A stretch of DNA of 64,000 nucleotides from Amoebophrya sp. A120. Its lineage: Eukaryota > Protista > Dinoflagellata. The translations under genes and the position numbers were made by a program. This document shows, piece by piece, positions 61-59,410 of this stretch. The stretch spans positions 1,244,492 through 1,308,491 of the forward strand of contig CAJINV010000012.1 of assembly GCA_905178155.1 (NCBI GenBank). Reading direction: 5' to 3'. Positions within the stretch are counted from its first letter, which is position 1. Every line of letters starts with the position of its first letter. The notes beneath the pieces were generated by a model. It saw only the letters and a program-made list of their open reading frames with translations, searched no databases and was not told the origin of the DNA.

Positions 61-3000
61 CTAAACGCGCTTTTCGTTTTCCCGAACAAACCACCGGCGG
101 TGGTCCTGGCAGAATTGCCCGCCTGGCCGGTTTTGTTCGTCATTGCGGTCGTACTCGTTTCCGAGCCGCGCACGGAGCTGCCTCGGCCCAGCGGCACCAC
201 GGTCGGGGTGTACTGTTCCTGGAATTTCTTCTTGTCGCGGTCCGACCACTGGTCGTAGTTCACGGAAAACATTTGCACGTCGCTCTCCGACTCAGTGACC
301 GTTTCGTGAATGACTTTCCGGCTGTCCACGCCGAAGGTGTTGATCATAATCAGCGAGTTTTCGTGGTACTTCCGGTAGAGCTCAAACCAGCTCCGGACTA
401 TCCCGCCCTTCGTTCGCTTCAGCAGCAGTGCGTACTCGTGGTAGAGCAGGTCAAAATCCTCGATTTTGGTCATGGTTTTCCCGTAAATCTTGATGTTTCC
501 CTTCAGCAAGCAGTATATGACCTGCTTAAACATTACAGTCTCAAACGTTACAATAGAATGTCGAAATCTCTGATGCAAGAGTGCATGATCTAGCCAACTC
601 ACGTAAGATTGCGCATGACACGTTCCGGAGCCCCAAACCCCACTACAATCTGACGAAATTTGTATTGCAAAAGGTGGAACGCTATGCGAGTCTGTCATGA
701 CCATCATGCAACACAAATTCCAGATTCTATTGTAACGTGGTTTGAGATTGTAACGCTTGAGCAAGTTGTACAGTACTGCAGCAGCTTCTTGCAGTTCTCC
801 GGTTTCCAAAATTTTTTGTAGGCTTCCCGGTCGTTTTGCAATAGGAAATTCTTCACCAGCTTTTTCAGCGCTATCTGCCTCCCCTTCTGGCACTCGCAAG
901 AACTGGTGGTTGATGATGATGCAGCAACTCCGCTCGGCGCGGCGGTTGGTGTTGCCGCGGGATAGTCCTTACGTCTTCCGCTAGAAGAAGTAGTCGCTGT
1001 GCTAGTTCCCGTGCCGGCGCTAAAAGAACTGACACCACCACCAGCATGCAAAGAAAAACGTGTTACAGTTACACATCTGTTGTCAATTCAGCAGCACAAA
1101 TTTCTGCGCATGAGGAAGAAAACTTGCAATGCAGAAATCCTACGGGAAAACACCTATGAAACGAGGCTGCTATGCATATTCGGCATGACAGAGCTTGTCT
1201 GTCTTGCTTGGAATGCAACACAAAGTGTAACTGTGACACTTTTTTAGCGCGATAACCACTCGATTCGTAGTTCTTGTTTGGGTCGTAGTCGAACACGAAC
1301 GTTTCCTTGGGCTGCAGTATCAAAATGAAAAATCCCCCCTCTCCATACTAAAACGGAGACTTGTGTAGCGTGATTTGCTACCACAAATTATCGCGTTGTC
1401 ATGCTAGAAGGCAAAAGATGTAGACACTGTAGTGCTGGCTGGCGTGGGAACAAAGCCTTGCATCTTCAGCATGACAGGAGGCAACTGGGAGTGGTGCGAG
1501 ACAGCATGACAAATTGCCTGCAATTCAGGCCACAACAAACTGCGTCTCTTGGCCTTCTAGCAATACAAGTCGATTTGTGTACGCAAATCCAGCATCACAA
1601 ATGTCCTTTTCAATATGGGGAGGTGGGATTTTTCCTCGCAATATGCAGAATGATCGCTTCAAACAGCGTGGAGAGCAGCACGAAGTCTGGGTCTTTCCCG
1701 CTCATCAGGTCGCCGAACACGATGGTCGAGTTGACGTCCATGAAGATCATGATGCGTTCCTTGGGCCGCGAAAACCGCTCGATGATGCGCGTGAAAAACT
1801 CGTCATCGGTCATGGCATCCAAGATGCAGACCTTGCACAGCACCACATTGTACTCCTTACTGTACAGGATCGGCGAGCACGTGGTCTCGCGCGTTGAAGA
1901 TGTCGCGGAGTTTGCGGCTACTTGATCCCCCGCCGGGCGGTCGTCGTTGTTCATCGGGTTTATTTTGCTACTGGTGCTACTGTAACCGTCCTCATACACA
2001 CAGCTCGAAACCTCCTCGAACCCGTTTTTCCCGATCGAAAAATCAACAAACCGCCCGGACACGTCCCGCAAGTTCAAAATCCCGGGCAGAAACTCCGTAC
2101 TCAGCTGCGGCTCGGGTAAGAGTTGCGAGGACCTACTACAGGAAGCGTCGTAGACGCCGCCAGCATAATTTCCGATATTTCCCGACGCATTGATATTGTT
2201 CTCTCCTCCCTCGCCTGCAGAGGTCCGGGCTGAGGACGCTGCTGCTGCTCTTCGGGATTTGATCTTGGTAATACCCAAAGTAGGTGTTTTGGTCACCGAC
2301 TTCTGACTGGATGTTTTCAAGCCCTGTTCTACTCCTTGAAGGTTCTTGTCGTCTGCTGCTGTACTAGTTGCGGCCGACGTGCCTACATTAGTAGTACTGC
2401 TGCTACGATTGCCAGGATGAACATTGTTCCCGCCCGTGGCTATAACTTCCTCTTCAAAAAATTCCAGATTATCGTCGAAGAAGAACACGCAGGTGCGGCT
2501 ATCCCGTGTGAAAACATCTCCACTCCAGAGCTGTCGTGCAATTCTGCATGCCAAAAAGGTTTCTCATGCGGAGCCCTATGAGAGGCATTTGCTTTTCGTG
2601 TTTTGGGATTTGTGATGCTAGGATCAGCATGCTGTGCTAGATCTGTGATGCTTCTGAGCTAGCGAAACAGGATCTCACTACGAGGACAAACTTGTCATGC
2701 CAAACAACCAAAGCTGTGTGATTTGTCTAGCAGATTTCCCATCTTGATTCTGGTGTGGGGACGTTTTTGATCATGATACCGGCTCGCGTAGGAAAAAGCC
2801 GGAATCACCTTCGCGCCGCCGTTCTTGAAAGTTATGGATTGCAAAAATGTCTGGGTCTGGAAGTGGAAACTTGTAGTGCTAAAAGTGAATGATAGAGGCA
2901 CTGCAGTGCGCAGCTATGCATGACAAATTTTTTGGCTACTATGTCTTACGTACTCCGCATGGCAAACTGCATTTTTCCATGACAGGCAAGAGGGCTTTTT

Positions 3001-6000
3001 CGTGCCTATGCAACACAGATTGTCGAGTCATGCCAGGCAAGCATGACAAACTTGCATTCTACTTCCAGATCCTGACCCAGACATTTTTGCATTTGATAAA
3101 AGTCTGCTGCTTCCAAAAGTTGTAGCAGGAAGTAGTCACGTGCAGGCCGTAAAGGTCCTTGATTTTGTGCAAATAGGCGGCGAAGTTGTTTGCGAACTGC
3201 CGCCGCGCCGGGTGAAAGCGGCACGTGGACTATGCAATGCAAAAGCATCGTACTCGTATTGCAATCATGCATTATGCTTCTTGAGGTAAATCAGCATTAC
3301 AAATTTCATTTCTCATGATGTAATGCATTTAATATACGAGTACGATACTTTTGCAATCCATATGGACAGCTGCTTCGCGATCTTGTTGTTGCCGTTGTTT
3401 CCACCAGCCGCACCTGAAACGGATAATTTCGCACTTTCGGTAATGCTTTTCTGTTTCGTTACCACGCTACCTGGTCCTCCCGGCGCCCTCACCATTTCGC
3501 CGCCCTCAGAAGTTGTTGTTGGGCTTCTTTTCTCATTTACATTTCCGCCTCCATCCTCGTCATACCCGCCCTGTTCAAGCGCCGAGACCTGCGGCGCAAG
3601 CACCGCGGTGGGTTTGCTCGAGTACTCGCAACAGCGCGAGAAGTCCACGTCCTGAAGAAGAATGTGCATGTTCGGCACCCCCTTCTTCTCTTTCCTTCGC
3701 TCGTACACCTGCTCGGTGCGGATCTTGTCCACCCGAATGAGCAACTCGATCCCAGTACTACTGCTCGAGGAGGGATGATCCCCCGTCTTGTCAAAACTCT
3801 CGTGCCTTTGTAGTTCAACATCTACGACATCTTCAGCTGAGGTAGCGCATGCTGATAAAAACCCTGCTTCTGCAGCTCGTTCTTCGTTCGCGAGACGAAG
3901 AGCTTCATCTGATGTACTAGCATTTCCATTTTCGTCGAGTGGACCTACATCCTCCCCCACGACCGTCGAAGCGCTGCTGGCACAGCTACTGTAGTTGGTC
4001 ATTTCTTCCAAATAGAATTGAGTGGCTTCAAACAACTTCGAGTGTGTGCAGTGCATGGCCCAGTGGACAATGTCCATCAGGTGCACATACACAATGCACT
4101 CCAGCGAGTCGCGGTAGTTGTACTTCAGGGAATCAAAAATCGCGAGGAGGAGCCGCAGCGCCCGCTCGTAGCCGATCACCTCCCCTCGCTCGCCACTGGT
4201 GCACGCCTCGAAATAGTTGGGCAAGTGATAGTATCCCACGAAAAAAGTGTTACAGTTACACATCTGTAGTCAATTCAGCAACACAAATTTCTCCGCATGA
4301 GAGAGAAAACTTGTAATGCAGAAATCCTACGGGAAAACAGCTATGCAACGAGGCTCCTATGCATATCCGGCATGACACAGCTTGTCTGTCTTGCTTGGCC
4401 TGCAACACAGTCTGTAACTGTAACACTTTTTTCTTGCGATAGATAGCTGAGAAAGCCGGGACGCTCGTGGATGCCGTCCAGGTTGAGATATTCGATGAAC
4501 CGCTTCTGCTCATCGAGAAACAGTTCCGAAAACGCCTGCTGAATCTTCTTCCCCTGTTCAAAGGTGAACACCCGGGCATTGCAGCACAGCTTGATCACCG
4601 CCTTTTTATACATTGCAAATATGTCTGGGACGTCTGGGAAGATCTATATTGGAGGAGTTTTCTCATGCACAATTGTAGTACTTACATGAACCGCGTTCTT
4701 GCCTGATGTAATCCATGCTCTAGCATCTACTTCACACCTATCGTCGCAAAGGCTTCCCTATGCCTATGATCCGGGTGCTCCTTTAATTATAATTTGCTGC
4801 ACATGCAATACAGGTGTATGTAGCATAGAAAGTTAGCATCACAAATCCCATTCTATTTTCAGACCCAAGAAACATACTTGCAATGCATACCGCTCCTTCG
4901 CGGACGAGAGTTCGGCCAGGCATTGCGCGGACCGGTTGTGCAGGTAGATGTCGTAGGCCATAAGAATCGAAGAAGCCACGTCGTAGCTCGTCCCTTGGTG
5001 TTGGTGCGAATTGGCCGCTGCGGTTTTTTTGGAAACAACCAGCTGGTGCGCGTTTTTATTTTTTGAAGATGTCCCGCTGTTCATCATGTCATTGTTTTCA
5101 TCTTCGTGCTTCTGCAGGTCGTTCTCCTGCATTCCTAGCTGTCCAGCTGTTGCTTCCCTTGTAGTTCCGGCTCCACTTGTGAGAGGATCTGCAGTTGAGG
5201 TCAATATCGCCCGCATGGCAGAGGACTCGAGAAAGTATTGCAACGCATGCCGGCCCATCTGGAAATTCCGGAAAACGTTCTCCGTCATCACATGGCCCAT
5301 ATCGGCGAAACACAGGAACTATGCATTGCAAATATGTCTGGGTCTGGAAGAGTGTAACTTGTCATGCTGCATCTGGATCGTGGAAAAATTTGTCTTGCAT
5401 GATCACCAAAAGAGGTCCACTTTTGAACAAGTTTAGAGGCAGTTTCTCATGCACGAAAGGCATGATAGAGATCTCACAGAACCTGTCATGCTAGGCAGCG
5501 CATGCCAGACCGTGTGGGCCATGGAAAACCTGCATGACAAGCCTAGCAATCTTCCAGACGCAGACATTTTTGCATTTGATAGGAACAGATAAAAATGGTA
5601 CAGCTGCATGCAGTCCGGAAGCAGGTCCGGGTGAGGAAGCGATTCTTGTTCCTGTCGCTTATTTCCGCTAGCAAAACCCATTCCTCCCGCTGCAGTAGAC
5701 GTGTGTTGGTCCGGCGTCGCTCTTCGATGCGACGAAGGAGAGGACGCCGTGCGAAGATTTTCGTCGATTCGTGTCCGCCCACTGTGGCGCGGATAACCCT
5801 GCGAAACGTCGTCCATTGTTCTTCCCGCCACCGGATTTATCTTTGTACTTGCAGGTGTTGTTGTACTTCTAGCATCAAGCTGACCGACAGTATGTCCACC
5901 TGCGGTACTAGATGATCTTCCACCACGACCAGCTGCCCGGTCGTTATTTGTACTTCTACTTCCTGCCAATAAAACACTCTTGTTCCAATTCGCGCAGGTT

Positions 6001-9000
6001 TGCAGGATATAAACTGCAAATATGTCTGGGTCTGGAAAGATCCAAGGTTTGTCATGCTTGTCGGACATGCATCTCAACGATCTGTCATGCACATTACCCA
6101 AAAGTGCCACTTTTCTGTCATGCAGAAGCTCGCTTTGTCATGCAGAAAAGCCAAGACTGTAGCACCTCCAAAACTTGTCATGCTTGCCAGTCAAATGAGG
6201 TGTCCTCGTCTTCCGCAACCAGCATTACAAGTTTCCAGACGTAAACATAATTGCAATGCATACAGGAATATCCTTAAGAAATCCAGGGACGCGGGCACGC
6301 ACTCGTTCTGCAGAAACTGGTTGAAGCGAAACCGCATCTGGATCAGGGTCTCGATAACCAGCTGCCACTTTTTGGGCAGTCGGTTGAAGCTTGGCAAGAC
6401 GGCGGCGTTTGTTTTGATCACATGCGTCAACACCGTGGACGGGTCAAAGATGATTGCGTTCGCACTTTGGTCGTTGCTTTTCTTCATCTTCTTCATCTTG
6501 TGTGACTGTTGGATTTGAGACGTAGAAGATTCTGCCTTATTTTTTCCACCACCACTTGCTGACGATGTTGTCCCACCTCCCATAGCCATGCCCAAATCCT
6601 GTCGCAACAGTGGCAATTTTCCGAGCTCGTGGATGGCCAAATAGGCGAAGACCGCGTCGAGAATCTCCTTGTCGAAAATCTTCACGTTTTCCGTCGCCCA
6701 ACTCGTCAGCTCCTTCCAGGCGTAAGTGGTCAATTCCAGATTATTCTTATCCCGAGGTGGATGACCAACGGCGCTCGTAGTAGTTGATGTTGCTGTTCCA
6801 CCGCCACCGGCACCTCCACCGACGGTCATGTAATTCATTTTTCTTGTGCCGGTACTGGCCGGCACTAGATTGCAAAATTCCTCGTATTTGTCCGTCACGA
6901 TGCAAAAGACGGTGAGGAACCCGGAAACCGTGTGCTTCAAGATGTGCTTCGGCGAACGCGACATATCTGAGTACGCCTTCTTTGCCGAGGACGTCGGTGG
7001 CTTTTTACCTGACGCGATAGAATACACAGAACTGTCGCCCAAGTGGTCCTCATCTACTTCTTGCTCATAATCATTTTCATCTCCAGGTCGTGATCCGGAA
7101 GATCCACCATCAGAACTGCTGTTTTTCATCACACCATCAAGATTGTGGAACTTCTCCGCATCCACGAAAAATTCCGAATTGCGCTCGTCGGTTTCATACC
7201 CCCGGAAGTAACAGAGCTCCGGGTAATAATGCTTGATCTCCTGAAGAAATTCTTCCGGCGTCGTCCTCGGTTGACAAAAAAAATGATCCGGTCGTGCAGC
7301 TGTCGCTCGTCCTGCGCGGCCGTGTTTAGATACACTTCGTTGTGATGAACGACCCAAAGCACCAGCTGCGGCTGCGGCATGTGGTCCTCGAAAATCATTT
7401 CCACCGACACCGGAGATGTCTTTGTCTTTCCTCGCTGCTCGATGTTCATTGTGAAGATTGTCATTATTTCCCCCAGGTCGTTTCTTCTGCTCGAAGTGGT
7501 CAACAGAAGTATCTTCATCTTCACGGTCCTCGTGCGAGCTCCACCCTAAGATTTTTTTCGAAATGAATTCTCCCGCTTTTTCCGACAAATTTCTCAAGAT
7601 CCTCTCGTCCTCTATCGGCACCCAAGGGCGGGCACTGACGAGGTATTCTTGGTCATAAGCCGCGCCCGCCTTGCTCGTGTTGTGGTGTTCTTCGTGGTCC
7701 GACACGCTCCGGATGGGAAACAAGTCCAGCCCCACGTTCTCAAATTTCACGGCGGAACTATAGGATTTCGTAAACTGGGTCAAATCCCGAAACTGGATCT
7801 TTATCGGCTCATGTTTACTTCGCACAACATGTTCTTGCGGAGGACGAAACGAGGTTGAGGCTCTACTAGTACTGAGAAAGTGATTGTTCGACGAAGCCCT
7901 TGTGGTATTTTTCATCCCCGTGGTCGTTGCTGCCGATGACGATATTTTTCCGACGACGCTGCTCTGTGCAGCGTCGAAAACTTTCAGCAAGATTTTCAAC
8001 GCGTGTACCAACTCGATCCGGGGGTTCTCGATCGCCGCCTGGAAAAACAAATGCGCGTCAGAAAGAACGAACAGTGTGGATGAGGAACCACCGGCAGCTC
8101 CATAGAACGACAACCCCACACCGCGGCCCGGTTGATGAAAAGTGTTAATACTGCTAGAAGTCGTACTACCCTGAATGGTCACCAGACAACTACCTTCCCT
8201 GCTGCTGTACTTTGACAAGTACCCTTCCAGACGTTCCCACGCGCCCCGATATCAACTGCAAAGATGTCTGGGTCTGGAAGAGTGCCAGCCTTGTCATGCA
8301 GGTTTTCCATGACCCATGAGGTCTGGGATGTAGGACATAGCATGACAGATTCTGCGAGAGTTCTATCATGCCAATCCTGCATGAGAAACTGCCTCTCGAT
8401 TAGGTCAAAAGTGGACAGCTTGTGGTAATCATGCAACACAAATTTTTACATGATTTAGATATAGCATGACAAGTTGCTTTGTTCCAGACCCAGACATTTT
8501 TGCATTTGATACCCGATCCTCTTTCACCATGGTCGCGATCGCGTCCCGCAGCAGTTCCCCGTGTATCGCTATCCTGAGTAAAAACGTCCCTACACCAGAG
8601 CCAAGGTGGTAAATCTGCTAGACAAATCAACCAGCTTTGGCTGTTTCGCATGACAAGTTTGTCCTTGTAGTGTGATCCTGCTTAGGTAGTTCAGCAGCAT
8701 CACAGGTCCAGCACATCATGCTGATTATAGCACCACAAATCCCAAAACACGAACAGAAAATGCCTCTCATGGGGCCCAGCATCAGAAACTTTTTTCGCAT
8801 GCAGATTTGCATGGCAACTCTCAGGTGGGGACGTTTTTGCAAAGGATACTCGCCCCGATTTCCGTGCTGACACTGGTTGCGCTCGTCAGGCACGCGAGCC
8901 GCACCATCGCGGGGTTCACGGTTTTCGGGGTTCCGATCGATTTCAATTCGATGAGCACCGGGACCGACGTCGCTAGCCGGATCAGGTAGTTGTAGTAGAT

Positions 9001-12000
9001 TGCGTCCTCTGTCATTTCGGAATCGTAAAAGTCCAGCAGAACGAGGAGCGCCTTTTCGATCTCATCGAAACTTTTTTGTGACTTTCGCGCAGATGGAAAA
9101 GCGGATGATGTTACGTGGTCAACACGACGACCGGTTTCACTGTCATTGTCTTTCTCTTTGACTTTGTCTGCTGCTGTGCCTCCTGCATCAAAATTCGTAG
9201 TGCTTGTCACCTTGCTCTTCCTGTAGTTCTCCGTTCCATAGGTTGCTTTTTCATTCCCGCCATTTCGACTTGCAGTGCCACTCTCGCGCTCGCCAAAAAC
9301 GACTGCCTTGTCAGAAGTGTGATAAAAATTCGAGCAAAACTGGCACGCCTGTTCTAGGGTTAAAACCGCGAGAAAGAAGGCCAAGCCCGAAGAGGATTGG
9401 TCGGCTATGCTGAGCAAAAACGTCCCCACATCAGAGTCAAGATGGGCAATCTGCTAGACAAATCAACCAGCATTGGCTGTTTCCCATGACAAGTTTGCCC
9501 TCATAGTCTAATCCTGTTCAGCTAGTTCAGCAGCATCCCAGATCCATCTAGCACATCATGCTGGTTCTAGCATTACAAATTCCAAAAGACGACTAGAAAA
9601 TGCTTCTCATGGGGCTCCGCATGAGAATCTTTTTTGGCATGCAGATTTGCATGACAAGTCTGGGGTGGGGACGTTTTTACTCAGAATATCGGTGTAAGCA
9701 AGGTCTCCCTCCGGTTCACCCGAAATAATCCCTGCGTAGCTGTCGACAGCAGGTGGACCACGAGCCAGCTCATCTGCATCGAGTTTCATGATGTTCCGCA
9801 TGTTATACAAATCCACCAAGCTATCCCCTACGGTTTCCCCGCGAATGAACTGCTCAAAAGAGAAGTCCGAGTCCAGCGTTTCGTACACGAATCTCTTCAA
9901 CGGGCCATCCAATCTGGCAAAACTGGGGAACAGGTTCGGAATCTGCGTTTCCAGTGTAAGTTTCTTTCTCTGGTGTACAACACCTTCGTTGGTCGTTGAA
10001 AAAGTCGTGTGCCCGTCGTCGTCTGTTTTATTTTTGCCATTCGGGATACTGCTGTCACAGTCACCGTGGCCATGCTCCTCAACGAGCCCGAGTTCAAGAA
10101 TTTCCAGCACGAACGCGTTTTTCTGCCAGGGGGGTCGAGAGGAAGTCACAGGACTTTTCATCACTGAATCACCTTTAGAAGAAGAAGTAGTTCTACACCC
10201 GCCAGTTGTCGTGCCTTCTACCTTCTTGTCCACCTCCGTACTAGAGCTACAGCACTTCCGCAGTAGCCTCTTCACGTCCTTCCTGAATCTCGCCACATTG
10301 TGCAGCCGCGAGAGAATCAAGCACACAAAAACCGCGTCCAGAACTTCCGGCCCGGCCTCTGCGATCGGTTCGATAAAGCACTTCTGCAGGTTCTTGAAGG
10401 AACGCTTCGAAATCATTGAAGGAGCTCTCGAAAAAGCGGAGGTTGTGCCGCTACTACTCTCGTTGGCTGCACCACTTGCTGCTTCATGAGGAGCGGGGTT
10501 AACATCTCTAGGCGGCGTGCCGGTCGTAGTCGTTGACGGTTTGATATAATTTCCCGTGGACGTCGCAAACACGAAACCGTTGTAATCGTCAGATAATAGG
10601 TAGTAAAAAGCGGCACAAAGCCGCCGCACCTCGTCTCTTGCGGCACTTGCAACATTGATGTAGTAGTTCTTTGACTTTTCTGGAAGTAGATGTTGTGTGT
10701 TTTCATTGTCACGCGGCTCCAAATTATGTTGAGCGACGTCCGACTGAGTCCAATAGTACCCGAGTTCCGGATAGACATTTTGCAACCTCGTGAACAAGAG
10801 AAATGTTTCGGCCTCGTACGATGTCTTCTGTCCGCCATTCGCCAGAAGCTGCAGACCGGCGGAGTACAGTACCCCTGTCCGCATATTAAACCGCCTACGT
10901 TTGATCATATTTCCGGTGCTTCCCAGCCTAGGAATTCGTGACGGATTATCTTCCGGGCGGGAGGAAGCTGACTCCATGAGTTCGTCGGCAGAGGAAGTAA
11001 AATCTTCGTATTTATTTCCACTCCCAGAACAATCATCTGAGCCCGCAGACGTTGACTCATTTTTCATCTCGTATGCTGTTTCCTCATCCTCGACATCTTC
11101 ACCTTCATCCCCATGATCTTCTTCTTCCGACAAACCATCATCAGCGGTTTCCTGCCGACTCAGGGACCCCCGCGCCCCAGCTTCCAGCATCTTCGCAACC
11201 AGAGTGTCGGCAAACTGCAACGCAGAAGTTTGAATTTCGCTGATCTCGACCGGATCCAGGAAAAACCGCCAGGGAGAGAGCTTTGCGACAAATTGTCGAG
11301 TTTGATGTTCGTCGGCTACGGTCGCCCCTATTCTTGCGGGTTCATCGTCGTTCACGCGGGTCGTCGTCGTCGTGTGATTTTCGACATAGAAAAATGTGCT
11401 ATGCTCGTAAAGGAAGGAGGCGACCTGATGCGAAAAGTTGTCTTGCGCAAGTCCAGCAGTATCGTTTTCGTTGTTCTGAACTGCCGGTACGATTGTGTCA
11501 GTTTCAAAGGCGTGAACGTGATCGTCTGTTTCCTGAGAAATAAACTCGTTTGAAGACGAGGACCTCTGAACTGGGTCGACGACGTTTTCTTCTCCATTGG
11601 TCCAGATGACATTACGCAAGTCGTTCCTGTGCAGTGCGCCGATACCGATTAGGAAAGCCAGGTCAACACAAATGTAGTTGGACTCTTGAAGTTCGTGTTG
11701 ATGCGCCACCACATCAACTCCGTCGATGTTGATGTCGTTTCCTCGCTCCTGCTGCAAGGGCGGCTGCTCTACTCCCCCTACGGTCCGAGAAGTTAAACGC
11801 CACAGCCTTTCCGCCTCGTCGCACACTCGCAAGAGCAGCTTCAAAGCACGTTCGAGGCCGATGAAAGTAGAGTTTCGGGCAGATTTCAAAAAAACCGACA
11901 GTTCTTGGATCAAGAGTTGCGGAGGTCCGGAGAAATTCTGTTGCTTTCTGTGTGTTGTTGAAGATGCAGTAGCTCCACTTGCCATGCTTGGAGGAGATGT

Positions 12001-15000
12001 TGTCCCGTTATTAGCAGTGGGTAGTTGTTCAGATGACCCGCCACCAGCCGCCACTGAGAAATTTTTGCCCAACATGAAGTCGCCATTATTCAAGAGCCGA
12101 CTGAGGCGAAAGCGCTCAGGTGGTGAAAGACCGTGGAAAAACGCGGTCTTCAGTTCTGCTACGGAGCCGGAGATCCTTTTTTGTTTAGAAGCAGCTGCAG
12201 CTGCTGCTCCACCGCTAATTTCAGTTGTTTCCTCCACACCGCCGATGATGGTGCTGTCGTCCTCTTCTTCAAACGCTGTGAGGGCCACTGCCAGTCTCGC
12301 TAGCGCCCGGTTCTGGAGTGCTGCCTGGCCCATTCTTCGCTTTTCGAACTCTTCCCGATCTTCGTCCTCATGGCAGCTGCCCTGGTGGTTAATATTTTGA
12401 TTTTCGGTCATGCCACTCTTAAAAACACCGCTGCTCGTATCATGATTTCCGCCGGTGCTTTGCTGTTGAGCAGGACTCTCGTCCTGTCGAGCCTCGTCTA
12501 CATCCAATTCTGCCCAAAGCCGAATCCGTTGCTCGTGAGACAATTTAGCGTAGTTTTGCTCCTTTGAGTTCTTAGTGCCTGGTATGATGGTGGCTCCGTC
12601 GATGATCTTTTTCGCGGTAGGACTACTGATGCCAACAGAAGTTTTGTCTTCCTGCTCTTGTACCACGCCTTGTCCTTGCAGTTCGTGGTCACTTTTCGTT
12701 TGCAGTCGCTCCGTCGTTTCCTTCACAAATTTTCCGCGTGTTTTCTGCCAACTGTGGTACAGGACCAAATCGGTGGCCGTCATAGGTACAAGGTGGCTAT
12801 GTTGGGTGCTGACGGTGTCAGCACAAGTGGCGGCGTGACTTTTCGGTAGTACGCTTTCTTGCACTGCTCCAGCACCTCCGTGGCCCACAAGACCTCCACC
12901 TGGAATACTAGCAATAGGAACTATCAGTGACTCCATCAACACCTGAGCCCCAAAGAAAAACCGCTGAAAAACGGACTCCGTCATGGCCAACGAGCCGGAG
13001 AGAGACTCCGCCCCCCGCGAGCCGGCCAGGTCGAGAAAAATCGTGAAAAGAAAAAACGCGAGGGTTTTTCTAGCTGATAAGGTGCTGTGTGGTGGCGATG
13101 CTCCGGTAGATGAAGTGCTGCTGTTAAACGAGAACCCCCCGTCCGGCGATGATGTTTTTCTTCCCTCCGATGTGTAGTGGTTCGTACGATCGCCAAGCAA
13201 TTCCTTTCTCAACTTTTCGACATTCGCCGCCACATTCTCCCCGGCTAGAAACTGCCGGAAGCTCCACTGAATCGAGAAGCATTTCCGCAAAAGGATTTGG
13301 TGCTCGTGATCCAGCCGCGCGAAACTGGGCAGGAGATTGGAGGTTGTGCTGAAACTAGAGGAAAATTGCTGGGGTTCTTGGGAAGCAAGACCAGGAGCGC
13401 CGGAGCCCGCCCTCGTCATCGCGTTATTTGTTGCACTACTACTACTACTCGCAGTATTCTTAACGCCGATCACAGAGAGCAGTTTCCCATTGCGTCCTCG
13501 ATCGTCAGCCACGCGCCAGAGACTGTCACTTAGCTCAACTTCTGCGGGATGCAAATTGGTGACATAATTACCATCGTAGCTGCTACAGGGTCTTGATCTT
13601 GTTACATGCGAGGTGGAAAAATATGAAGCATTTCTTCCCTGAAATAAACTGTCGCTCCCGTCAGGTCCAGGACCACGTGCTTGCCGAAGATACCCGTTGT
13701 GATCGCTGCTAATAAACGGTCCTGATCTACTCCTCCCAAATGGATGCTCATCTCCTCCGTAAGTGACGTCCCCACTTGTCGGCCGCTCTTGGAGGTCGTG
13801 CTGCCCACCTCCGAATGTTGTTGTTTTCCTCGCAACAGAAGCCGTCCTGGTCGTGCCGCTGCCAGCACCACCAGCAGTACCACCACCTCCCTCTTCGAAG
13901 GAGCCTGGTTTAAAAATCCCCAACGCGCTCAACACCTCCGCGCTCTTCCCCGCGCAGCGAAAGTCTGCGTTTTCCTGGCCCAAATTGCGAAGAATCACGT
14001 ACGTGCACAGTGCGTTGAACGTCTCGGGATGCGCGAGGCCCAGGGTATGAAAATGCATAACTCCACCTCCCCCTCATTTGGATGGCGTCCGCAGCAACAC
14101 AAGTCCTGGCACAGATGCAGCTTTTGCATGACAAATTTACGACTGGTTGTAGTGCTGTTTCGGCTTTGGGAATCTGTCATGCATAGTATCGGCAAAGGGC
14201 AAAGGGTGGCTTTGGTGTTTTGCATGAGAAATGAGAACGAGGGGGAGTTGTGCACTGTCATACAGGGTTTCTTCCCCGAAAAAGGGCTGCAGGAGGTCGG
14301 TCCAGGAGGAAAGCGTGAGTTTGGTGGACGAAACATTAGGGCCATTTTTCATCTTCGGATCGTTTATATCCCCACCGCCCGCTGCATTATTCATTTTCTG
14401 GAAGGCCGCCGGTGCCGTCAGATTCATCTCCTGTCCCTGCGTAAACAAGTCGTACCGATCTGCAGCAACGTGGTACAGAGACAGCAGGCTGCAAACCGTC
14501 TGCAGATACTTCTCTTGCGCTCTGGCGTTCACCGTATTGTTCATTGCGGCGGACATTCTTGTCGGGTTGTAGGGGGAACAACTTAAAAATGCGCGCGACT
14601 TTTGCCCGCCCATTTGAGCGTCTTCACTCTTGTTAGAATTTCCAGCAGCATTTATTCCAGCTCCTCCACCCACAGAGCGGGACGATTGCTGACTCGTGCC
14701 CTTTTGCGTGTCACTTATCAAAATGAAAAATGCCCCCACCCCGGAACTTGCAATTATAGTTTCTCATGCAAAGTTTGCAAGTGAAAGCTTTTTGTCTTGC
14801 ATGAAAGGACTACGAGCCTTTCTGATGCAGAACCTAGACTGCGCAAGGTATCGCTTGCGTAACAGATCCGGCTGCTGTTGGGCGCCTTTGCAACACAGAT
14901 TTGAGCTATTCAGCATGGAAAATTTCTGATGCTGATATATGCAAGACGGGGAGCGTTTCAATTGGAAAGGTTTGCAATACAAATGCTGCCAAGTTGTGGA

Positions 15001-18000
15001 CTGGGGGCATTTTCCATTGTAATATCACCAGACACTGCTTTCCGCCACACCGCGTCCAGACCGATCGACTGCGTTGCCACATTGATGTTTCCTGAGTAAA
15101 AACGTCCCCACACCAGAGTCAGGATGGGGATTTTGCAACACAAACCTAGGAGCTTTGTGAGTCACGCATGACAAGTTGCGCTCCGCAGTGTAGTGCAGGT
15201 TAGCAAGTGCAGCCGCATCACAGATTCATCTGCTCATCCTGTTCACAGCATCACAAATCCCACAACACGACTGGAAATGGCTCTCATGGGGATGCGCATT
15301 ACAAGTCTTCCTGTCTTTGCAAATCTGCATTACAACTCTGGTGTGGGGACGTTTTTACTCAGGATATGATGTTGTTGTGCAGCACGGGGTCATTGGGTGA
15401 GCCACCACCGCCCGACCGCTCTTCAACACTGTCCGCTATATTGGACGTGCTTGGAGGAAGATGGCCGCCGGTCGGTTCCTGTAGTGCTGACGCAGCTGAA
15501 ATGGAGTGTTGATCTTGATGGGTATTATCCGTATAATCTTCTTCAGCTCCCCCACTTCCTACGCGGCCCGACGAGCAATCATTTCTCTTGCCGTCCCGCA
15601 AAACGTCGAAACCAGAATTACCTTCGGTGCAGCAGCTCGACGCAATGCTATTGAGGTTTCTTGACCTTTCTTCACTGATGATCGACAGAAAAGGCAGGGC
15701 GGTAGTTGGATCATGATCCTGAGTACTATGCAGTTGGAGATTTTTAGGCTCGAACATTCCGTGGTCGTGGTACAGAGTATCACTCCGTGCTCCATAGACG
15801 GAACCCATGAAGACTCCCCCTGGCGCACCCCCGCTCGGTCCCGCTGCCATGCGCGATAAAAATCCACCGCCCGTCGATCTGTGCGCGGCAGCGGACGCGG
15901 AGGTTGGGCGGAATAGTAAGGAACCGGCTCCTGCTGCTTCAACAGCTGATCCGTAGTAAGATTGAGGATACGCACGTGAAGATGAAGAGGTGTGAATCTT
16001 CGCACTGTTTCTCCCCGCGGACTGGCTGTCCCATTGGAAATACGAGAGTTCGGGAAAAATTTGGTGTACCTGCACAACAAATTCCGTCTCGTCTATCGCG
16101 TTCCACTCGCACACTTCCGCGGCAAACGCGGAGCCACGAATATTCAAGTGGTGCAAAGGGTTTCTCCGGTTCGCATAATTCGCCGCTGCGGACGTCGCGG
16201 AGTAGCCGAGCTGTGGCCCACCTGTGGTAGTACTTGCTGGTGGTGCACTGGAAGTCCTAGACCAAGCGGCAGAAGATGAAGTTCTTTTTCCCGCTATACC
16301 CGCAGAAGCTTTCTTACCACCCTCAAAGAGACCATCTTCCGGTGTTAGAGGTGCGGAAATGCGCCGCGTGTGGGGCACGATTGCTGTACTGGCTGCAGAT
16401 GAAAAATTACCACCTGCTTGGTGGTTCATGAGCGAAAGCATTTTTCGGTTGTAGTCTTGCAGCAATAAGTGGACGACGCTGCTGTTGCCCTGCAGGCAGG
16501 CGTAGTGCATCGGGAGCCAGCCGTTCGCGTCCTGCACGAAGCTGTCGGCGTTGCAATCCAGCAGTATCTGGCAGATCTCGGCCGCGTTCAACCGCGCGGC
16601 CGAATGAAGGGCGGTTAAGTGTGCCGTGGCCGAGGTGTTGACCAGTCCTGGTGCGCTTATTTGCTGGGGAGATGAGGATGCAGCCACATCATTCGCCGAC
16701 GTGTCAACAGTGTCGTGACTGCTGCCTCCTGCCTGAGCAGCCGCTTGCGTCTGCCGACTCCGGCTCGTAAAAGTGGAAGCAGCTTCTGCAGCAGCCTCTC
16801 GTTCTTGTTGCTGTTCAGACTCTATTAATACCTGACTCTGATATAATCGTCCACCTCCTGCTGTACTACTGTTGTAATTGCTGAGCGACAAAAGGCAGGG
16901 CTCGTCGATGTACTGCACAAATTCGAAGGGCAGATCTCGTAAAATCTGGAAGAACGAATCGTAGCTGTACTCGATGGCCAAATAGAAAATCATCGACAAC
17001 CGCTGTGCCTTCGTCGTGTTGGCTCGTATCGCCGTGCTGTATGCGGAGAGGACTGGTTGAACTGGGAGTTGCTGTTCATCCACTTCTGCTGGAACCGCGG
17101 GAGAACCAGCGACTTGTTGCTTGCCCATCTCTACTTCTGGGCCGGTAGCTTTATTCGCGTCCTCCGCTGTTAGAACTTGTTCCGCGCGGCCGTCGTTATT
17201 TTCCTTGTCCTCGGTAGTGCGCTGCTCGACCCGTCCCGCGGCTGGTACAACCGCCGAAGTTGTGGTCACGCGACCCGGTTGTAGTTGGCTGCTCCAGTAG
17301 GCACTAGTACTCGCATGATTTGCACTTTCGCCGGAGCAGCAGCCCTGCTGGCAAAAGGCGTGGAGTTGTTTGGTGACGATTTTGAGGAAAATTCTCGGCC
17401 ATTTCTCCACCAGCATCTCAACCAAATCGCGCCACCACGGATCCAGCATCATCGTGATGAAATTCGGAAGCACTAGAGAGGACGTCGACGCGGCGACTTT
17501 TGACCTCGACGAGGGAGTAGATTTCCTCTTCGCATCTTCCTTGCCCACGACGGCCCTGCTTGTTCTTTCCATGACTGATTCGGTGCTTTCCGGCTCTTTT
17601 GGTTTTGATTTTGTTTTGTCGAACGACTCATCATTTCCTCGTCGTTCCTGTTCCGCTTCCGCACTACCTCCAATTGCCAAATTTTCTTCTTTTTCGGTCC
17701 CAGGCGCGGCACTATTGGTATTTTCGGAGCCATAACTGCTTATCTCAAGACTTACCCCATTCAGATAATCCACCCAGTTTTCAGCGATCACGATTTCTTC
17801 CGCCTGGTTTACCTCTTCCACCAAGCAGCTCGCGGCCATGTACTTCTGAAAAGCGAATAGAGAAAACGAAAACTGTTCCGATGCAGTTGCGGCTTTGCTC
17901 GTTTGTTTATGTACTGGTGACATACTAATTCCGCCGTTCGGGTGGCTGCTGCTTGAGCTTCTCGTAGTGGTGGAACCACCATAATTCGTCGTAGCAAACA

Positions 18001-21000
18001 AATTGGAAGCCCCCGCAGGTGGTTGTCCCATGATGTTGCTATAAGAACTTCCCCCGCCCCCCGATGCGCTTGTAGTTCCCCCGCCACCGCCCGCTCTGCA
18101 ATTTATCAAGGTGACCTGACCCAGACGAATGGTCTGCGCAAAGTCTTCCCACAACGACAACAGCTTCGTTTTACTACTACTACTACTTCCCGTTGAGGAA
18201 GCTGCACCACTTCCTCCTCCCGCGACAGGCCCCTTTTTCCGCAACTCCACCCTCTTCTTCCGGAAAACCCACCGCAGCCACTTGTGCGAGAACTCCCGTT
18301 TGTGGCGGATCTGAAGCTGATACGCGATCTTCTGCAGAAGAATTTGAAACAGTTTCTGCTGCTCTTTCAGCTTAAACCGGTCCGACTGCTGCCGCGTTTT
18401 GACCCGCGAAAGCAAGACGTCGATGGAAACGCGGAACACTTCGGTAATCGCAACTGTCGTGTTCAACGGTACGGCTTGCTGTTGGTGGGGATCAAGTAGA
18501 CCATTTTGGCTCTTCATCTCAGCAGAGCCGAGACCGCTGGCGGACCGCTGTTCTAGTACTCTCGCGACGCCTCCTTTCGACGTTGTGCTGTTGCTGTTTA
18601 CAACACCTGCTGCACCCGCGGAAGTAGAAACACCCGAGGCTGGTGTTGTGATTTTTCCCGCTGCTGCTGATGCGGATGATGTTGAATCTTGCTTGCGCAC
18701 AGCACTGCTGTAACTGGAGTCGTTCGAGGCCACCGCTTCACTGCCGATGGAGGACCTCGCACGCAAAGACGAAGAGGACCCAATCGCAGCTGTTGGAGCA
18801 GCCGGCGGCCCGCCCGAGATCGAGCTCCGTGCAGCTCCCGCTTGTAGCTGCTGTTTAGTACTGCTATTTTGCGCAGCCGTACTAGCTGCAGCAGACCCAC
18901 CACCATTCGCCGCGTTCGCTCCGGCAACTTGCCAGTAGCACAGCACCATGGAGAGCATAGTTGGCGATTTTAACAGTCCGCGCTCTCCGTCTTTCAGTAG
19001 TTTCTCCTCGACCTGCTGTAAAAACTGCAAAAAAGCCGTCACGACGTCCTGCTCAGAGTTCTTATTTGCTGCCGTTCCCCCTGCTGCGGTGCTTTGCGCG
19101 TTTACCGCTGTGAGATGATCTCCTCCTCGACTAGTCGCGGCTCCTCCGGGCGCGAGACGGGCGTTGATGATGTGCCGTTGCTGCTGTTCGTCAAGTTCCT
19201 CGAGATGATACACTTGGAAAAAGGAGCTGAAACTCTGGCTCATTTGCTCCGAAAGCGGTACTACTGCGACCGGCACGGCGAGGGGTCTGGCACTGGGCGG
19301 TGGGTATGGAGTGCCTATTCCAGTCATCGAAGAACTCTTACTTGGTCCAGTTGTACTACTCACAGTTGTTGTGCCCCCTCCGACAACAGCAGTGGATGCC
19401 GCGCTAGGTTGCTGCGCTATCCCGGCCGCCCCTTGTTGCAGTTGCATCGCGGCGGCCATAGCTCCCTGCTGCTCAGCGTCGTTGTAGATAAATCCTTCTG
19501 TCGTCGTGCTATTTTCATAGAGGGCCGTATATCCGGATGAGCCTCCTGCCGACGCTCTCGTCGTCCCCGAAGGTACTTCTAAACCATAGTCATGGTACAG
19601 GTCATGCTTTCCCAGAAACCCTCCTCCTGCTTCCCGTCCCAGGTCGCGCAACTTTGCCGAATTCGTCCGACTGCGCTGCCGGTAGGCGGACGAAAGAACT
19701 TTGCACACCGTGGTGCAAACGTCGTCTTCGGAAGGATGGAAATAATCCGCCTCTTCAGAACCACATCCACGGGCGTCGGCGTTGACAAAGGTGACCATAG
19801 ACTGCTTCTTCCCAACCACCGGGATAGAAGACGTCGCGCAGGAGGCCTCGTTCGCTGCTGCAACAGCAGTCCCCGCAAAATTATAGGCGCCTTCGTTGTT
19901 CATCGCACTGCCTGGCTTCAGGATGGACTTTGTCTGGTTCGCGATGGTGGCGGTGCGAGTGGAGACCAGGTTTGATGGCGTGTTGTCTGCTGTATTCCCC
20001 GTGGTGCCGGCGGTTGTCGGAGGCGTGGAAGGGTACAAAGGACAAGGTTGAACTTCATCATGATCCCCGTTGTACCCATTCAATATTTTGTCCTCATTTC
20101 TCAACAAACTGGCGTCGTGCTGCATGGTGCTAGCAGCCGCTGCAGACAAAATCTCGTCGCCAGATGTACTTAATGAATTCCAGTTACCGAGAACAGCAGC
20201 ACCAACATCTTCTGCAAAACTAGCTCCCGTTTCGCATACGGACGGCAATGGATTTATTCCTGTACTACAGTCCGCAGAAGTCGTGCTCCCCCGAGAAAAA
20301 GAAGAATTCTGACTGTGCATATTAGTGTAACGCTGCCAGTGCTGGTGAACAAGCGGCGCTCCACCGAAACTGCCACCGAGAGGTCCTGCAGTAGTCCCGC
20401 CCCGCAACCCAAAGACCCGCTGTCCCGCGGCGACGACGACCGCTTCCACGGTAGAGGCGCGGATTTTCTGAAACGAATCCGAATTCGAAATTACATTCCG
20501 TCCCGCAGAAGAGGGGGAAATACTAAAGGTTGTCAGCTGCTTCTGCACCGTGATGTGATCGCTGCTCCTCTGGGGCGACACTGATAGAATAGAGGAGGTA
20601 GTTGCGTCCGACACAGTTTTGGTGCTCGCAAACGGAAAGAACGAACCGGTGGTTGAAGATGAGGATGAACTGTTCTTCCGAAGTAGATGATTTGATGTAC
20701 TACTGCTACTTCTCTGCACATCGACCAAGGGCGCGAGAACGGCGTCGCATGCGATACGCAGAACTTCCAGCTCACGGTCGTTGTTCAGGGAGCTGGCGCT
20801 GTCTTGCTGCGAGGAGTGTTGATTTATATTTATTTGGTCCTGCTCCAATGCAGATAGCATATGGTCTGCTGCGGGAAGAACAATATTATCGCCTCTGGAC
20901 GTCGAACTACTCCCCCCGCCGAAGCGTACTCGGTGCGGCTGCTGCGCGTGCGCACCTCCCCAGCGGGAACTGCGATGCGCAAAGTCGTCCAAGGCCCCGC

Positions 21001-24000
21001 GAAACGTGTTCTGCTTCAGCATTTGCAGCCCGGTAGAGCAGGTGCCAAAATGAAGATCAGTGGCATGATCGCTAGTCCCCGGTTCTTGGCGGAGATGCTC
21101 CTGGTGGTGAAAACTCCTACCCCCGGCGGAAGTTGCCGCAGAAGGAGCCAACATGTAGTTAATACCCGCCGTCATAGCTGCACTAGTACCGGCTCCCAAA
21201 AAATCGTCCACCCCCGTCGCGCTCGACGGCCGGAGCGCTACACAGACGCGGTGGTGCGCAAAGTTCAACGCGAAGAGGATCTGCTCGAGCTGAGGAGACA
21301 AAGTGTCAGTATCGTTGTCGAATAGAAAAACCACCCTGCGACAGTCAATGGCGTGGCGGAAAAGCTGGTACCGGGTGGAATCTTCCCCGTGCAGGATCTT
21401 CAAATAGCGATCGATCAAATCAATCGACAGTGTCGCCGAAAAATCCTCGGAGTCCTCCGGGGAACCCGGTCCACCCGCGGAGGTGGTACAATATTGTTCC
21501 TCCGCGGCGGAGTCGCGCTTCGAGGTAGTGAGTCGGGAAAAGTTGTTGGGAGCAAAGTGATGTTGCTGGTGTGTAGACGAACTGGTTTTTGGATAGGTGT
21601 TTGAGTGTGGCCCGGTTTGCTGCAGGGCAGAGGGACTAGTACTACTTCCAGCTGATGTAGTTCCACCTGCTAGTGTTGTGAAGGAGTTGATATGATCACG
21701 TTCACGACTAGAGGGATAAGCTGTAGCAGACGTGGGCTTGTTGTAACGACCCACATCACTCCCGTTCTTCTTGGTACTATTGTGAATGAACCCAGTGTAG
21801 GCCTCGGATTCCGTATCAGACTCGAGTGAAGATGATGACTCATCGTAGTTATTCGCCGTTTCATCCATACCCCCTGCTCGTGGCGATGATGAGCCATCTT
21901 TTGGTAGTGACGGGGGATTCCCGTAGTTCTCACTCCCATCACTCCCACCGGATATCCTATGTAAAAACATCCCCACCCCAGAGTTGTCATGCAGATTTGC
22001 AAGCACAAGAGCATTTGTAATGCGCATCCCCATGAGAGCCATTCCCCATCTTCGTGTTTTGGAACTTGTAATGCTGTAAACAGGATAAGGAGACGGATTT
22101 GTTATGCGGCTTCCCTTGCTAAACTGCACTACAGTACAGCCTGCAACTTGTCATGCGTGACTCCCAAGAGGTCTAGGTTTGTGTTGCAAAATCCCCATCT
22201 TGACTCTGGGGTGGGGACGTTTTTACACGGGACACCAGATTTGATCTTGTTACCCCTGCACGATGAACTCTCCGCAATCGTAGTGCCAGAAGTTGTGTTG
22301 TAGTTCGACGACGCATTCGCGCGTCCGGGCAACGAGGGGGGGCCCTGTGTTGAAGACCACTCGGAAGGAGCAGGAGCGTATTTCTTGTTGTCACTGGTGT
22401 TATTTTCCCCGGCGAAAGAAGTTGTGGCAGAAGAAAATGCAGCGGACGTCGTGGAATTCGCATTCGTTCTCGCCAAGAACTCCGAAACCGGGATCAAAAG
22501 CGGGATTAATTCCTGATATCGCAAGAAAAAACTGTTTCACTGTGAACTTGTGATGCAGAAAATGGAACACAGAACTATTTGTCTTGCTACACCTGAAACA
22601 CATTGGATTTGCAAGCGTGTTTTCCCTTGGGAAGCGCGCATAACAGACTTTCAGTGTCATGTGTAACACACTTGTGATGCAGATCTAGCAAAATCATCAC
22701 AGTGAAACAGTTTTTTCGTGGGATACCTGACTCGCATCATTCAACACGGTCAAAATCAACTGCCGCAACAAACACGACTTCCCGCTCCCCGAACTTCCCT
22801 TGATCACGAACGACCGGGGGAAGGACTGCGCACACGAACGGTACTGCTGCGGGACGACTTTGATTTTCGCTGGTTTCATTTGCATTCCCGGCTGCCTGTT
22901 TTTCAGTTTCACTCCGCGCCCGGCGCTCGTTTTGCTTTTGACGGTGTCGTTCCTCGGCGTCCTGGCACTAGTGCTGGAAGTTGTTGTTGTTGTTTTTTTC
23001 ATGTTCAACTCTACTTCTGCACTAGGAAAATAGCACACGGTTTGTATCAACGGAGCGAGCTCTGGCGGGATGTGGAGCTCCTGCTGCTGTGGTAGCTGTT
23101 GTTGTTGTGTAGATGCACCGTACGCGAAACGGGTGGCCCCAGACCTGCCTTGCCCCGTGAAGATTTTCCGCATCAAAAACGTCTCTCCCTCAGCACTGCT
23201 CGTTTTCGCTTGCCGAACATCTTCCCTTCCGGACGACGAGAGCAATTTTTGCAGGTTATCGTCTACTCCGTATGTTGTTGTGCTCATCGGTCCTCTTCTC
23301 GTCGTTAATATCCAAAAAAAAACTGTGTAAGTGTAGGTCTTTTGGGAAAACAGCATCACAAGTTTGTCTGCCATGACAGGAAAAACTTGTCATGCGCAGA
23401 TAGGATGGGAAAACACGTAGGAAGCGAGCCTATCACGCATGTGGAGCATGACAAGCGTAACTGTTTTGCATTTTCTGCACCACAGACTTACACTTACGCA
23501 GCTTTTTTCTTGCATAGTCGTCGAAACATGATGCTGCCCACGAGGACCACCTCCCAGGTAGTTGTAAGGACGAGCTTCCGGTGCCCCGTTAACGCCCCGC
23601 AGTCGGAAGCTGGCGCAGTCCACTTTCAGGTCGAGCTTCAATCCTGAAATAGCGTCGATGATAAAGCCGTAACGCGCCTTCAGGAACGACCGGAGCCGGT
23701 GTGCCTCCTCGGAAAATTGCCTCGCGGTCATCGTGTTTTTACGCACGCAATGGTTCCAGGAGTTCAAATCGACCAGGAAAGCAGCCGCATCGCCCTCGGT
23801 AGGCAAATTTTCTTCATTTTCGTGCTCGACAGATAACGTGCCCGTCCTTGTACTAGTAGCACCATCTGGAAGCACACCGCTACCTCCCGGGGGCTTGTGT
23901 TGTCCTCCTGCCGTCGCCGACGACGACAGGACAGGATCGGTGTCAGCATCGACCTCTCGTCCCCGTGCTGCATCATTTCGTGGCGAAGGCCCTTCGTGAT

Positions 24001-59200: not shown

Positions 59201-59410
59201 ACCCGCATTGTAGTACTGTTTGCAGTTGTTCCGAAATTTGCCATGCAAGGAGTGCGAAAAGGCAGGGTGTGGATTTGGTATTTCGCATCACAAACGAGGG
59301 GAAAAGGGAGCAGTTGTGCCCTCTCATATCATGGACGCCATCTTCATGCTGGCCATCATCTTATTCATGCTGGCCATCTTCATGGCCGACATCTTCTTCA
59401 TCGGGGCCAT
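56256..59410 (-). CDS. Small basic protein (~140 aa) with Met/Lys-repeat N-terminus, putative chromatin protein
   Basis: AAAAAAATG start; MAPMKKMSAMKMASM...MKKLQVMKKQAEK...QQKGKLKAVFLQGVAIAKRKIAAREVFRQAAQKAISRVQK*. Four introner junctions are in frame; the junction across ~57075-58660 is unresolved. Confidence 0.7.
56305..56595. mobile_element. Introner family A (diverged)
   Basis: TIR; TSD AGACT/AAACT. Confidence 0.85.
56662..57009. mobile_element. Introner, B-related
   Basis: TATCC..GTAAAAACG / CGTTTTCACACAGGATA; TSD CAGCT. Confidence 0.8.
57066..58650. repeat. Duplicated intron/acceptor block: copies 57066-57303 and 58417-58650, partial copy 57750-57818
   Basis: GGGCGTGCTGCATCATGTCCG(A/G)TTGTCTCACACAGAAAAA occurs three times; CAAGCCGAAAAAAGATAAGAAGTATGTTA occurs twice. 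Confidence 0.85.
58791..59056. mobile_element. Introner family A
   Basis: TIR; TSD CTTCT. Confidence 0.9.
59100..59328. mobile_element. Introner family L
   Basis: TIR TATGAGAG(T/G)GCAC; TSD TCATG. Confidence 0.88.

What the first reader, a model, noticed from the sequence alone, without database searches (positions are those of the whole stretch)
6008..6262. TGTNATGC / GCATNACA motif repeated inside otherwise unrelated families
Seen: several copies per element (at least four TGTCATGC in 6008..6262) in families A, B, C, D, E and L, in both orientations, and rare in exons. Inference: a shared cis code, either a transposase-binding site or the recognition site of an introner-specific splicing factor.
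Basis: partly seen in the sequence, partly recalled or inferred. Interest (0 to 1): 0.7.

Follow-up and report, generated by a model that had tools for sequence, protein, structure and literature searches.

The report
Helically phased motif in transposon introns
The short transposons that act as introns in this genome carry a shared 8-letter motif spaced in step with the DNA helix, which likely marks where their still-unidentified mobilising protein grips the DNA, rather than a splicing signal.

Summary
TGTNATGC occurs 124 times (8 expected). 118 copies lie in TIR elements with 5-bp target duplications and none in 25 kb of exon. These elements are introns: removing 34 of them, each with one duplication, gives one 8,388-codon frame, and six are skipped exactly in RNA-type contigs. 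They match published Amoebophrya A120-type introners.

The motif is wider than reported (YY-TSTNWTGC). It recurs in 340 of 340 elements from a second assembly. Nine of 10 families carry a same-direction pair 31-33 bp apart (1.4 expected), and opposite-direction pairs fit a 10.4-bp period (95% 10.3-10.5), which is B-DNA rather than RNA's 11. There is little or no strand bias, one family cannot pair the motifs in RNA, and two motif-free elements sit in an open frame.

Best reading: a subterminal double-stranded-DNA binding code for a shared, likely integrase-like transposase or its cofactor (0.62). A splicing-factor site is disfavoured (0.1). No binding protein was found, and whether the motif decays neutrally after insertion is unresolved. 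The elements are known; the phased motif was not found in the papers searched.

The parts
6008..6262 (.). Focal non-autonomous TIR element (255 bp), inferred intron of the minus-strand gene
   Evidence: TIR pair and perfect 5-bp duplication; the frame reopens on removing element + 5 nt; not among the RNA joints shown
6003..6007 (.). Left target-site duplication CAGGA
6263..6267 (.). Right target-site duplication CAGGA
6008..6038 (+). Left TIR (TAT-N7-AAA start)
6232..6262 (-). Right TIR (imperfect); pairs with the left TIR in the predicted RNA fold
6050..6057 (+). Motif copy 1, inward-pointing, 43 bp from the left end
6083..6090 (+). Motif copy 2 (33 bp after copy 1)
6116..6123 (+). Motif copy 3 (33 bp after copy 2)
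6136..6143 (+). Motif copy 4 (20 bp after copy 3)
6176..6183 (+). Motif copy 5 (40 bp after copy 4)
6222..6229 (-). Motif copy 6, inward-pointing, 34 bp from the right end
516..770 (.). Element of another family, skipped with one duplication in RNA-type contigs
   Evidence: joint 510>771
1045..1254 (.). Element (family 2), skipped in RNA-type contigs
   Evidence: joint 1039>1255
1318..1643 (.). Element (family 7), skipped in RNA-type contigs
   Evidence: joint 1312>1644
2500..2778 (.). Element (family 3; motifs almost all in one direction), skipped in an RNA-type contig
   Evidence: joint 2495>2780; map
3231..3362 (.). Element (family 1), skipped in RNA-type contigs
   Evidence: joint 3225>3363
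5320..5581 (.). Element (family 0), skipped in an RNA-type contig
   Evidence: joint 5313>5581
69..33978 (-). Host reading frame of 8,388 codons interrupted by 34 elements
   Evidence: stop-free only when element + 5 nt is removed, not + 4 or + 6
62472..62722 (.). TIR element without any motif above threshold, inside an open frame
63339..63536 (.). TIR element without any motif above threshold, inside an open frame

Best explanation
The motif is an array of sites inside short transposon-derived introns that is likely read on double-stranded DNA by the protein complex that mobilises them, with the copies phased so that bound subunits would sit on one face of the helix. Shown: the elements have TAT...ATA inverted ends and 5-bp duplications; they are removed with exactly one duplication; the motif is confined to them, conserved, placed at set distances from the ends and phased at 10.4 bp. 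Inferred: one trans-acting transposase (likely integrase-like, Ginger/IS3EU type) or its host DNA-binding cofactor binds the phased sites together with the ends. Only copies that keep that geometry would multiply, so families with unalignable interiors keep or converge on the same code. Splicing is inferred to rely on the paired ends, not on the motif.
For: A 31-33-bp same-direction pair occurs in 9 of 10 family consensuses against a null mean of 1.4 (0 of 20,000; scanning all 3-bp windows, the null never exceeded 7 in 3,000). The spacers of these pairs look unrelated between most families. Opposite-direction pairs alone: 31 of 31 lie within 2.8 bp of whole turns, best period 10.4, 0 of 500 scanned nulls. 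Period 95% interval 10.29-10.54 over families, stable under four motif definitions. Held-out elements: 53 of 75 pairs in phase, 31 of 36 for opposite pairs. Inward first sites cluster at about 39-40, 47-51 and 62 bp from the end. Strand: 105 vs 102 sites in minus-strand genes; element orientation against the gene 103 vs 92, with 37 copies holding only the forward and 26 only the reverse exact motif, of 195 strand-assignable copies. Family 3 motifs do not pair in RNA (0.08 and 0.00), and the N position is complementary in only 49 of 159 family-0 copies. Constraint is strongest on variants shared by several copies (0.23x spacer) and weaker on private ones (0.45x), like the TIR (0.33x and 0.49x). 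Two elements with no motif lie in a 301-codon frame and have stops in all three frames. Precedent: hAT transposases bind short interspersed subterminal repeats (PMC10368747 passages; PMC3143072 abstract). One A120 family is classed 'Ginger; 5-bp TSD, TA/TA termini' (PMC12130899 supplement).
Against: No transposase or autonomous element was found: none among 9 longer TIR-bounded stretches (6 inspected) and no integrase domain in 81 ORFs scanned. Farhat et al. found no transposase in A120 and argued against transposase mobilisation. Private variants are still depleted (0.45x, interval 0.37-0.52). In one search, copies with mismatched duplications showed little extra motif decay (0.33, interval -0.03 to 0.85), although this faded after matching by subfamily (P 0.10 and 0.64). 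Same-direction pairs other than 30-33 bp are not significantly phased (9 pairs, p 0.39), and end distances fit 11.3 best when the period is free (p 0.01 at 10.45). The three held-out multi-member families alone are weak (15 of 24, z 1.6). Exact motifs are slightly more often on the transcribed strand (324 vs 272, nominal p 0.037, copies not independent). In most families opposite motifs can pair in RNA (0.2-0.8). The motif-free elements are not RNA-verified.
Confidence: 0.62

Rival explanations
1. The sites are bound on DNA by a host sequence-specific protein (chromatin or transcription factor) that is not part of the transposition machine. Copies that carry them are tolerated or spliced better because the protein marks the intron on the DNA during transcription.
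For: It predicts the same phasing and strand symmetry. Private variants remain depleted. Nearly all classifiable copies have open frames beside them, so they are under host selection. No transposase is known in A120.
Against: The motif is absent from exons and nearly absent elsewhere in the window. Constraint is stronger on propagated variants than on private ones. Motif-free elements persist in an open frame. Sites sit at set distances from the transposon tip.
Confidence: 0.15
2. The motif is an RNA element, either a splicing-factor site or a set of helper stems that fold the intron and bring its ends together.
For: The elements are introns without a fixed GT-AG (PMC7789003). Opposite copies pair in predicted folds of most families, and the focal element folds at z -3.3. 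About five copies per element would hide loss of single sites. There is a weak transcript-strand excess.
Against: Either strand alone suffices (37 and 26 copies). The period is 10.4, not the roughly 11 of A-form RNA (value from general knowledge), and single-stranded sites need no phase. Family 3 has no motif pairing, and N is not kept complementary in family 0.
Confidence: 0.1
3. The motif and its spacing are only a relic of a common ancestral element with a 32-bp repeat, or a mutational by-product such as CpG decay, with no present function.
For: The families share termini and duplication length. Elements are CpG-poor and TG/CA-rich (0.63 and 1.43). A few family pairs retain similarity.
Against: Per-element dinucleotide shuffles give 4 against 117. 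Motif columns are conserved while N and TGC outside motifs vary at the spacer rate (0.95x). Phase is kept across different orientations and layouts.
Confidence: 0.08
4. The phasing is a general DNA-wrapping (nucleosome- or DVNP-type) signal.
For: The period is 10.4 bp and the motif has a T-rich 5' half.
Against: Outside the motifs, AA/TT/AT shows almost no 10.4-bp signal (amplitude 0.02), and the motif is highly sequence-specific.
Confidence: 0.05

Closest known systems
Amoebophrya sp. A120 introner elements (Farhat et al. 2021, PMC7789003; Gozashti et al. 2025, PMC12130899)
   Same: Inverted ends start TAT, seven variable bases, then A-tract; short direct repeats; non-canonical introns of about 240 nt; element sizes near 150, 210, 260, 280 and 320 bp.
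   Different: In the passages and supplements searched, these papers describe no internal motif or spacing. The duplication here is uniformly 5 bp rather than 3-5. Identity of the window with that strain is inferred from the description and not tested against its assembly.
Subterminal repeats of hAT transposons (Hermes STRs, Herves CG/AATTCAT)
   Same: Short motifs in both orientations inside the ends, asymmetric between ends, bound on DNA by the transposase.
   Different: Here the duplication is 5 bp (hAT 8 bp, recalled). One 8-10-bp motif is shared by at least nine families with unalignable interiors, and it lies on a 10.4-bp lattice across the whole element. Binding is not shown.
IS3EU/GingerRoot and Ginger-like integrase DNA transposons
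   Same: TA...TA termini; A120 fam38 is classed as Ginger with a 5-bp TSD and TA/TA termini.
   Different: IS3EU/GingerRoot usually make 6-bp duplications; Ginger2 makes 4-5 bp. No transposase was found here, and the term 'subterminal' does not occur in the GingerRoot paper.

Membership tests
Amoebophrya A120-type introner | Inverted ends TAT-N7-AAA | tested here: met
   End profile of 696 element ends: A at positions 11-13 in 639, 659 and 663; TAT and A-richness were part of the search; three small families have other bases there
Amoebophrya A120-type introner | Short direct repeat at the boundaries | tested here: met
   5-bp duplications in the window; 347 of 462 blast-found copies perfect and 77 with one mismatch
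Amoebophrya A120-type introner | Removed from the transcript without fixed GT-AG ends | tested here: met
   Six joints equal to element + 5 nt among 15 shown of 27, in contigs of runs guessed to be RNA; 34 of 34 junctions keep one frame
Amoebophrya A120-type introner | Window comes from that organism | not testable with these tools
   No genome is held; inferred from the published description only
Transposase subterminal repeat (hAT-like function) | Short repeats inside the ends at constrained positions | tested here: met
Transposase subterminal repeat (hAT-like function) | Conserved among propagated copies | tested here: met
   0.23x spacer for common variants; 0.10-0.32x on internal branches
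Transposase subterminal repeat (hAT-like function) | Neutral decay after insertion | tested here: inconclusive
   Private-variant ratio 0.77 uncorrected and 0.45 corrected; private variants include inherited ones
Transposase subterminal repeat (hAT-like function) | Bound by the transposase and needed for transposition | not testable with these tools
   No transposase in hand
IS3EU/GingerRoot | TA...TA termini | tested here: met
IS3EU/GingerRoot | 6-bp duplication | tested here: not met
   5 bp here
IS3EU/GingerRoot | Integrase-like DDE transposase | tested here: inconclusive
   Not found in 81 ORFs; the loci cover under 1 Mb
RNA splicing-factor site | Present on the transcribed strand | tested here: not met
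   26 of 195 copies carry only the reverse exact motif on the transcript and 4 carry none; 105 vs 102

The most novel reading that the evidence does not exclude
One protein, a domesticated integrase-like transposase or a host factor, coats every introner's DNA on this phased lattice and both mobilises the element and marks it for removal during transcription. Splice-site choice would then be templated from DNA in a lineage reported to lack U1 snRNA.
Probability: 0.12. Interest if true: 0.9.

Novelty: new variant of a known kind. Interest (0 to 1): 0.55.

Why it matters
How these introns spread is an open question: the original study found no transposase in A120 and no family-specific end motif, and concluded against transposase mobilisation. 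A single phased motif shared by families with different interiors points to one common DNA-binding machine. It gives a concrete bait and a mutation design for finding that machine, and for separating the signals for jumping from the signals for splicing.

Tried and rejected
No whole genome was held. The TIR pattern found nothing in viral contigs. No RNA holder was listed on record. The 2026 raw RNA runs X9 and X10 laid only 4 and 5 reads. The second lay showed no RNA joints because repeat joints from X5 filled the table (15 of 219 shown); its summed depths are not copy numbers.

A genic versus non-genic comparison failed because no copy classed as non-genic, and the script stopped before its last tables. 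The TSD-mismatch age test gave a hint against my reading that did not survive subfamily matching. The near-neutral private rate (0.77) was inflated by masking and fell to 0.45 after correction.

The search for an autonomous element failed: long TIR-bounded stretches, a motif scan (only chance HHCC patterns) and Pfam on 78 of 100 long locus ORFs plus 3 window ORFs. CpG decay and general DNA bending were rejected. An RBFOX-type UGCAUG or PUF-type UGU site (both recalled) was considered and rejected: N is free, and UGCAUG against its complement is 147 vs 158. Earlier scan findings: none.

Full report
Observation. The element at 6008-6262 has five TGTCATGC on + and one TGTAATGC on -, inverted ends and a CAGGA duplication. 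The pattern occurs 124 times in the window against 8.2 expected. I curated 57 elements by hand from a TIR/duplication scan; a few have uncertain ends. They hold 118 of the 124 matches, and 25,343 bp of exon-like DNA hold none. An iterated matrix trained on 54 window elements gives YY-T[G/C]TN[A/T]TGC, with 17.7 sites per kb in elements against 0.32 in exons at score 10.

What the elements are. They are 120-350 bp, start with TAT and have 5-bp duplications. Removing 34 elements plus 5 nt from 69-33978 yields one stop-free frame of 8,388 codons on the minus strand; removing 4 or 6 nt breaks it. Contigs of runs X1 and X2 (guessed RNA, one sample) skip six elements by exactly element + 5 nt, three of them within one contig; 15 of 27 joints were shown and the focal element was not among them. 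Run X5 has contigs that run from flanking DNA into the elements. These features match the introners described for Amoebophrya sp. A120 (PMC7789003: outline, passages, sections 11 and 12, and a term search of its supplement, whose figures I could not see). The organism is inferred, not confirmed.

More copies. A scan with the commonest end pattern returned 156 stretches, held as 148 loci of 826 kb including overlaps; the listed ones come from assembly JACKZZ01. They gave 431 raw and 357 distinct elements with perfect duplications. I kept the 340 of 120-420 bp; with 54 window elements they form 13 multi-member families and 25 singletons. The sample is biased to family 0, the search bait (184 of 394). 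332 of 340 have an exact motif and all 340 have a matrix site. Masked interiors of different families are mostly unalignable; families 4 and 7 are sisters.

Geometry, the main new result. Ten families had a subfamily of three or more members and so a consensus. Nine of the ten have a same-direction pair 31-33 bp apart (null 1.4). A scan over period and centre offset peaks at 10.4-10.45 bp. Opposite-direction pairs alone give the same period, with 31 of 31 within 2.8 bp of whole turns and 0 of 500 nulls as good; dropping family 7 changes little. The interval over families is 10.29-10.54, and four motif definitions agree. In held-out elements 53 of 75 pairs are in phase, but many of these are worn copies of the same families, and the three other multi-member families alone give only 15 of 24. 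Against the lattice: other same-direction gaps (9 pairs, including the 49-bp gaps of family 3) are not significantly phased, and end distances fit 11.3 best when the period is free. A 10.4-bp repeat is B-DNA and about 11 is A-form RNA (general knowledge).

Strand and RNA structure. In minus-strand genes the window has 105 and 102 sites on the two strands. Of 462 copies, 195 could be given a gene strand (79 had short flanks, 95 were open on both strands, 93 did not join). Orientation is 103 against 92; 37 copies carry only the forward exact motif, 26 only the reverse and 4 none; totals are 324 against 272 (nominal p 0.037). Opposite motifs pair in predicted folds of most families, but not in family 3, and N is complementary in only 49 of 159 family-0 copies; the ends pair in all families (0.70-0.98). 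Two elements with no site above threshold lie in a 301-codon frame and have stops in all three frames; their splicing is inferred.

Selection. Motif columns vary at 0.42 (TGT.A) and 0.21 (TGC) of the spacer rate and N at 1.1 (347 copies with perfect duplications). TGC outside motifs varies at 0.95 (272 copies). On trees, depletion is stronger on internal branches (0.32, 0.10) than on terminal ones (0.55, 0.31). With corrected opportunity in 13 subfamilies, common variants stand at 0.23 and private ones at 0.45; the TIR gives 0.33 and 0.49. This fits a filter acting through copying. It does not show neutral decay after insertion, because private variants include inherited ones. Duplication mismatches (115 of 2,155 pairs) put post-insertion divergence at roughly 0.027-0.053, against a private motif rate of about 0.026. 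Neutral decay is therefore possible but so is mild constraint. One search hinted at continued constraint, and one search did not confirm it.

Mechanism. Most likely the motif is a subterminal binding code on double-stranded DNA for the shared mobilising complex, phased for same-face binding with the ends (0.62). The binding, the protein and its identity are inferred. TA...TA ends and a 5-bp duplication fit the A120 family classed as Ginger-like (PMC12130899: passages, 38 of 58 A120 rows of supplement file 8, and a term search of 14 files). IS3EU/GingerRoot share the termini but usually make 6 bp (PMC10045372 and PMC6839031, passages). Subterminal binding is shown for hAT elements (PMC10368747 passages, PMC3143072 abstract). 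I found no transposase. Rivals: a host DNA-binding mark (0.15), an RNA signal (0.10), a relic (0.08), a wrapping signal (0.05).

Novelty. The introners are known. The internal motif and its phasing were not found in eight paper searches (the three exact-string hits were unrelated by title), in passages of a review (PMC11282704), or in the supplements searched (the PMC9860276 file was cut when stored). Roy et al. 2023 (Curr Biol) was not read, and figures and bioRxiv supplements were not visible, so prior mention cannot be excluded. Verdict: a new variant of a known kind, interest 0.55.

Noticed in passing
window 69-33978 (-): One frame of 8,388 codons split by 34 introners; Pfam finds ankyrin repeats and a TCAD9/phosphotransferase-like domain in 2 of 10 exons scanned.
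   Followed up: partly
window 35585-37256: A family-3 element carrying a nested TIR element of about 1.37 kb (about 35825-37203) with different ends; the host frame still reopens on removal.
   Followed up: partly
window 47508-54526: Family-11-like ends appear to enclose about 7 kb that includes a non-LTR retroelement (reverse transcriptase hit at 50752-52671); boundaries read by eye.
   Followed up: no
window 1040-1259 and 2495-2783: Imperfect duplications plus the RNA joints place both cuts inside the duplications, 1-4 nt outside the inverted ends, if the two cases share one offset.
   Followed up: partly
window 46370-47013 and 57070-58680: Other repeat or TIR-like insertions with different ends, nearly free of the motif.
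   Followed up: no
all elements, TIR positions 4-10: These seven bases vary as fast as or faster than spacer DNA among common variants (1.9x), between the fixed TAT and the A-tract.
   Followed up: no
L019:505-1608; L063:13019-14996; L026:632-1465: Elements expanded to 0.8-2 kb by unrelated inserted DNA, with ends and duplications intact and no transposase-like frame.
   Followed up: partly
window 58690-59400: Two elements inserted in a short-period repeat region (CATCTTCAT-like units).
   Followed up: no
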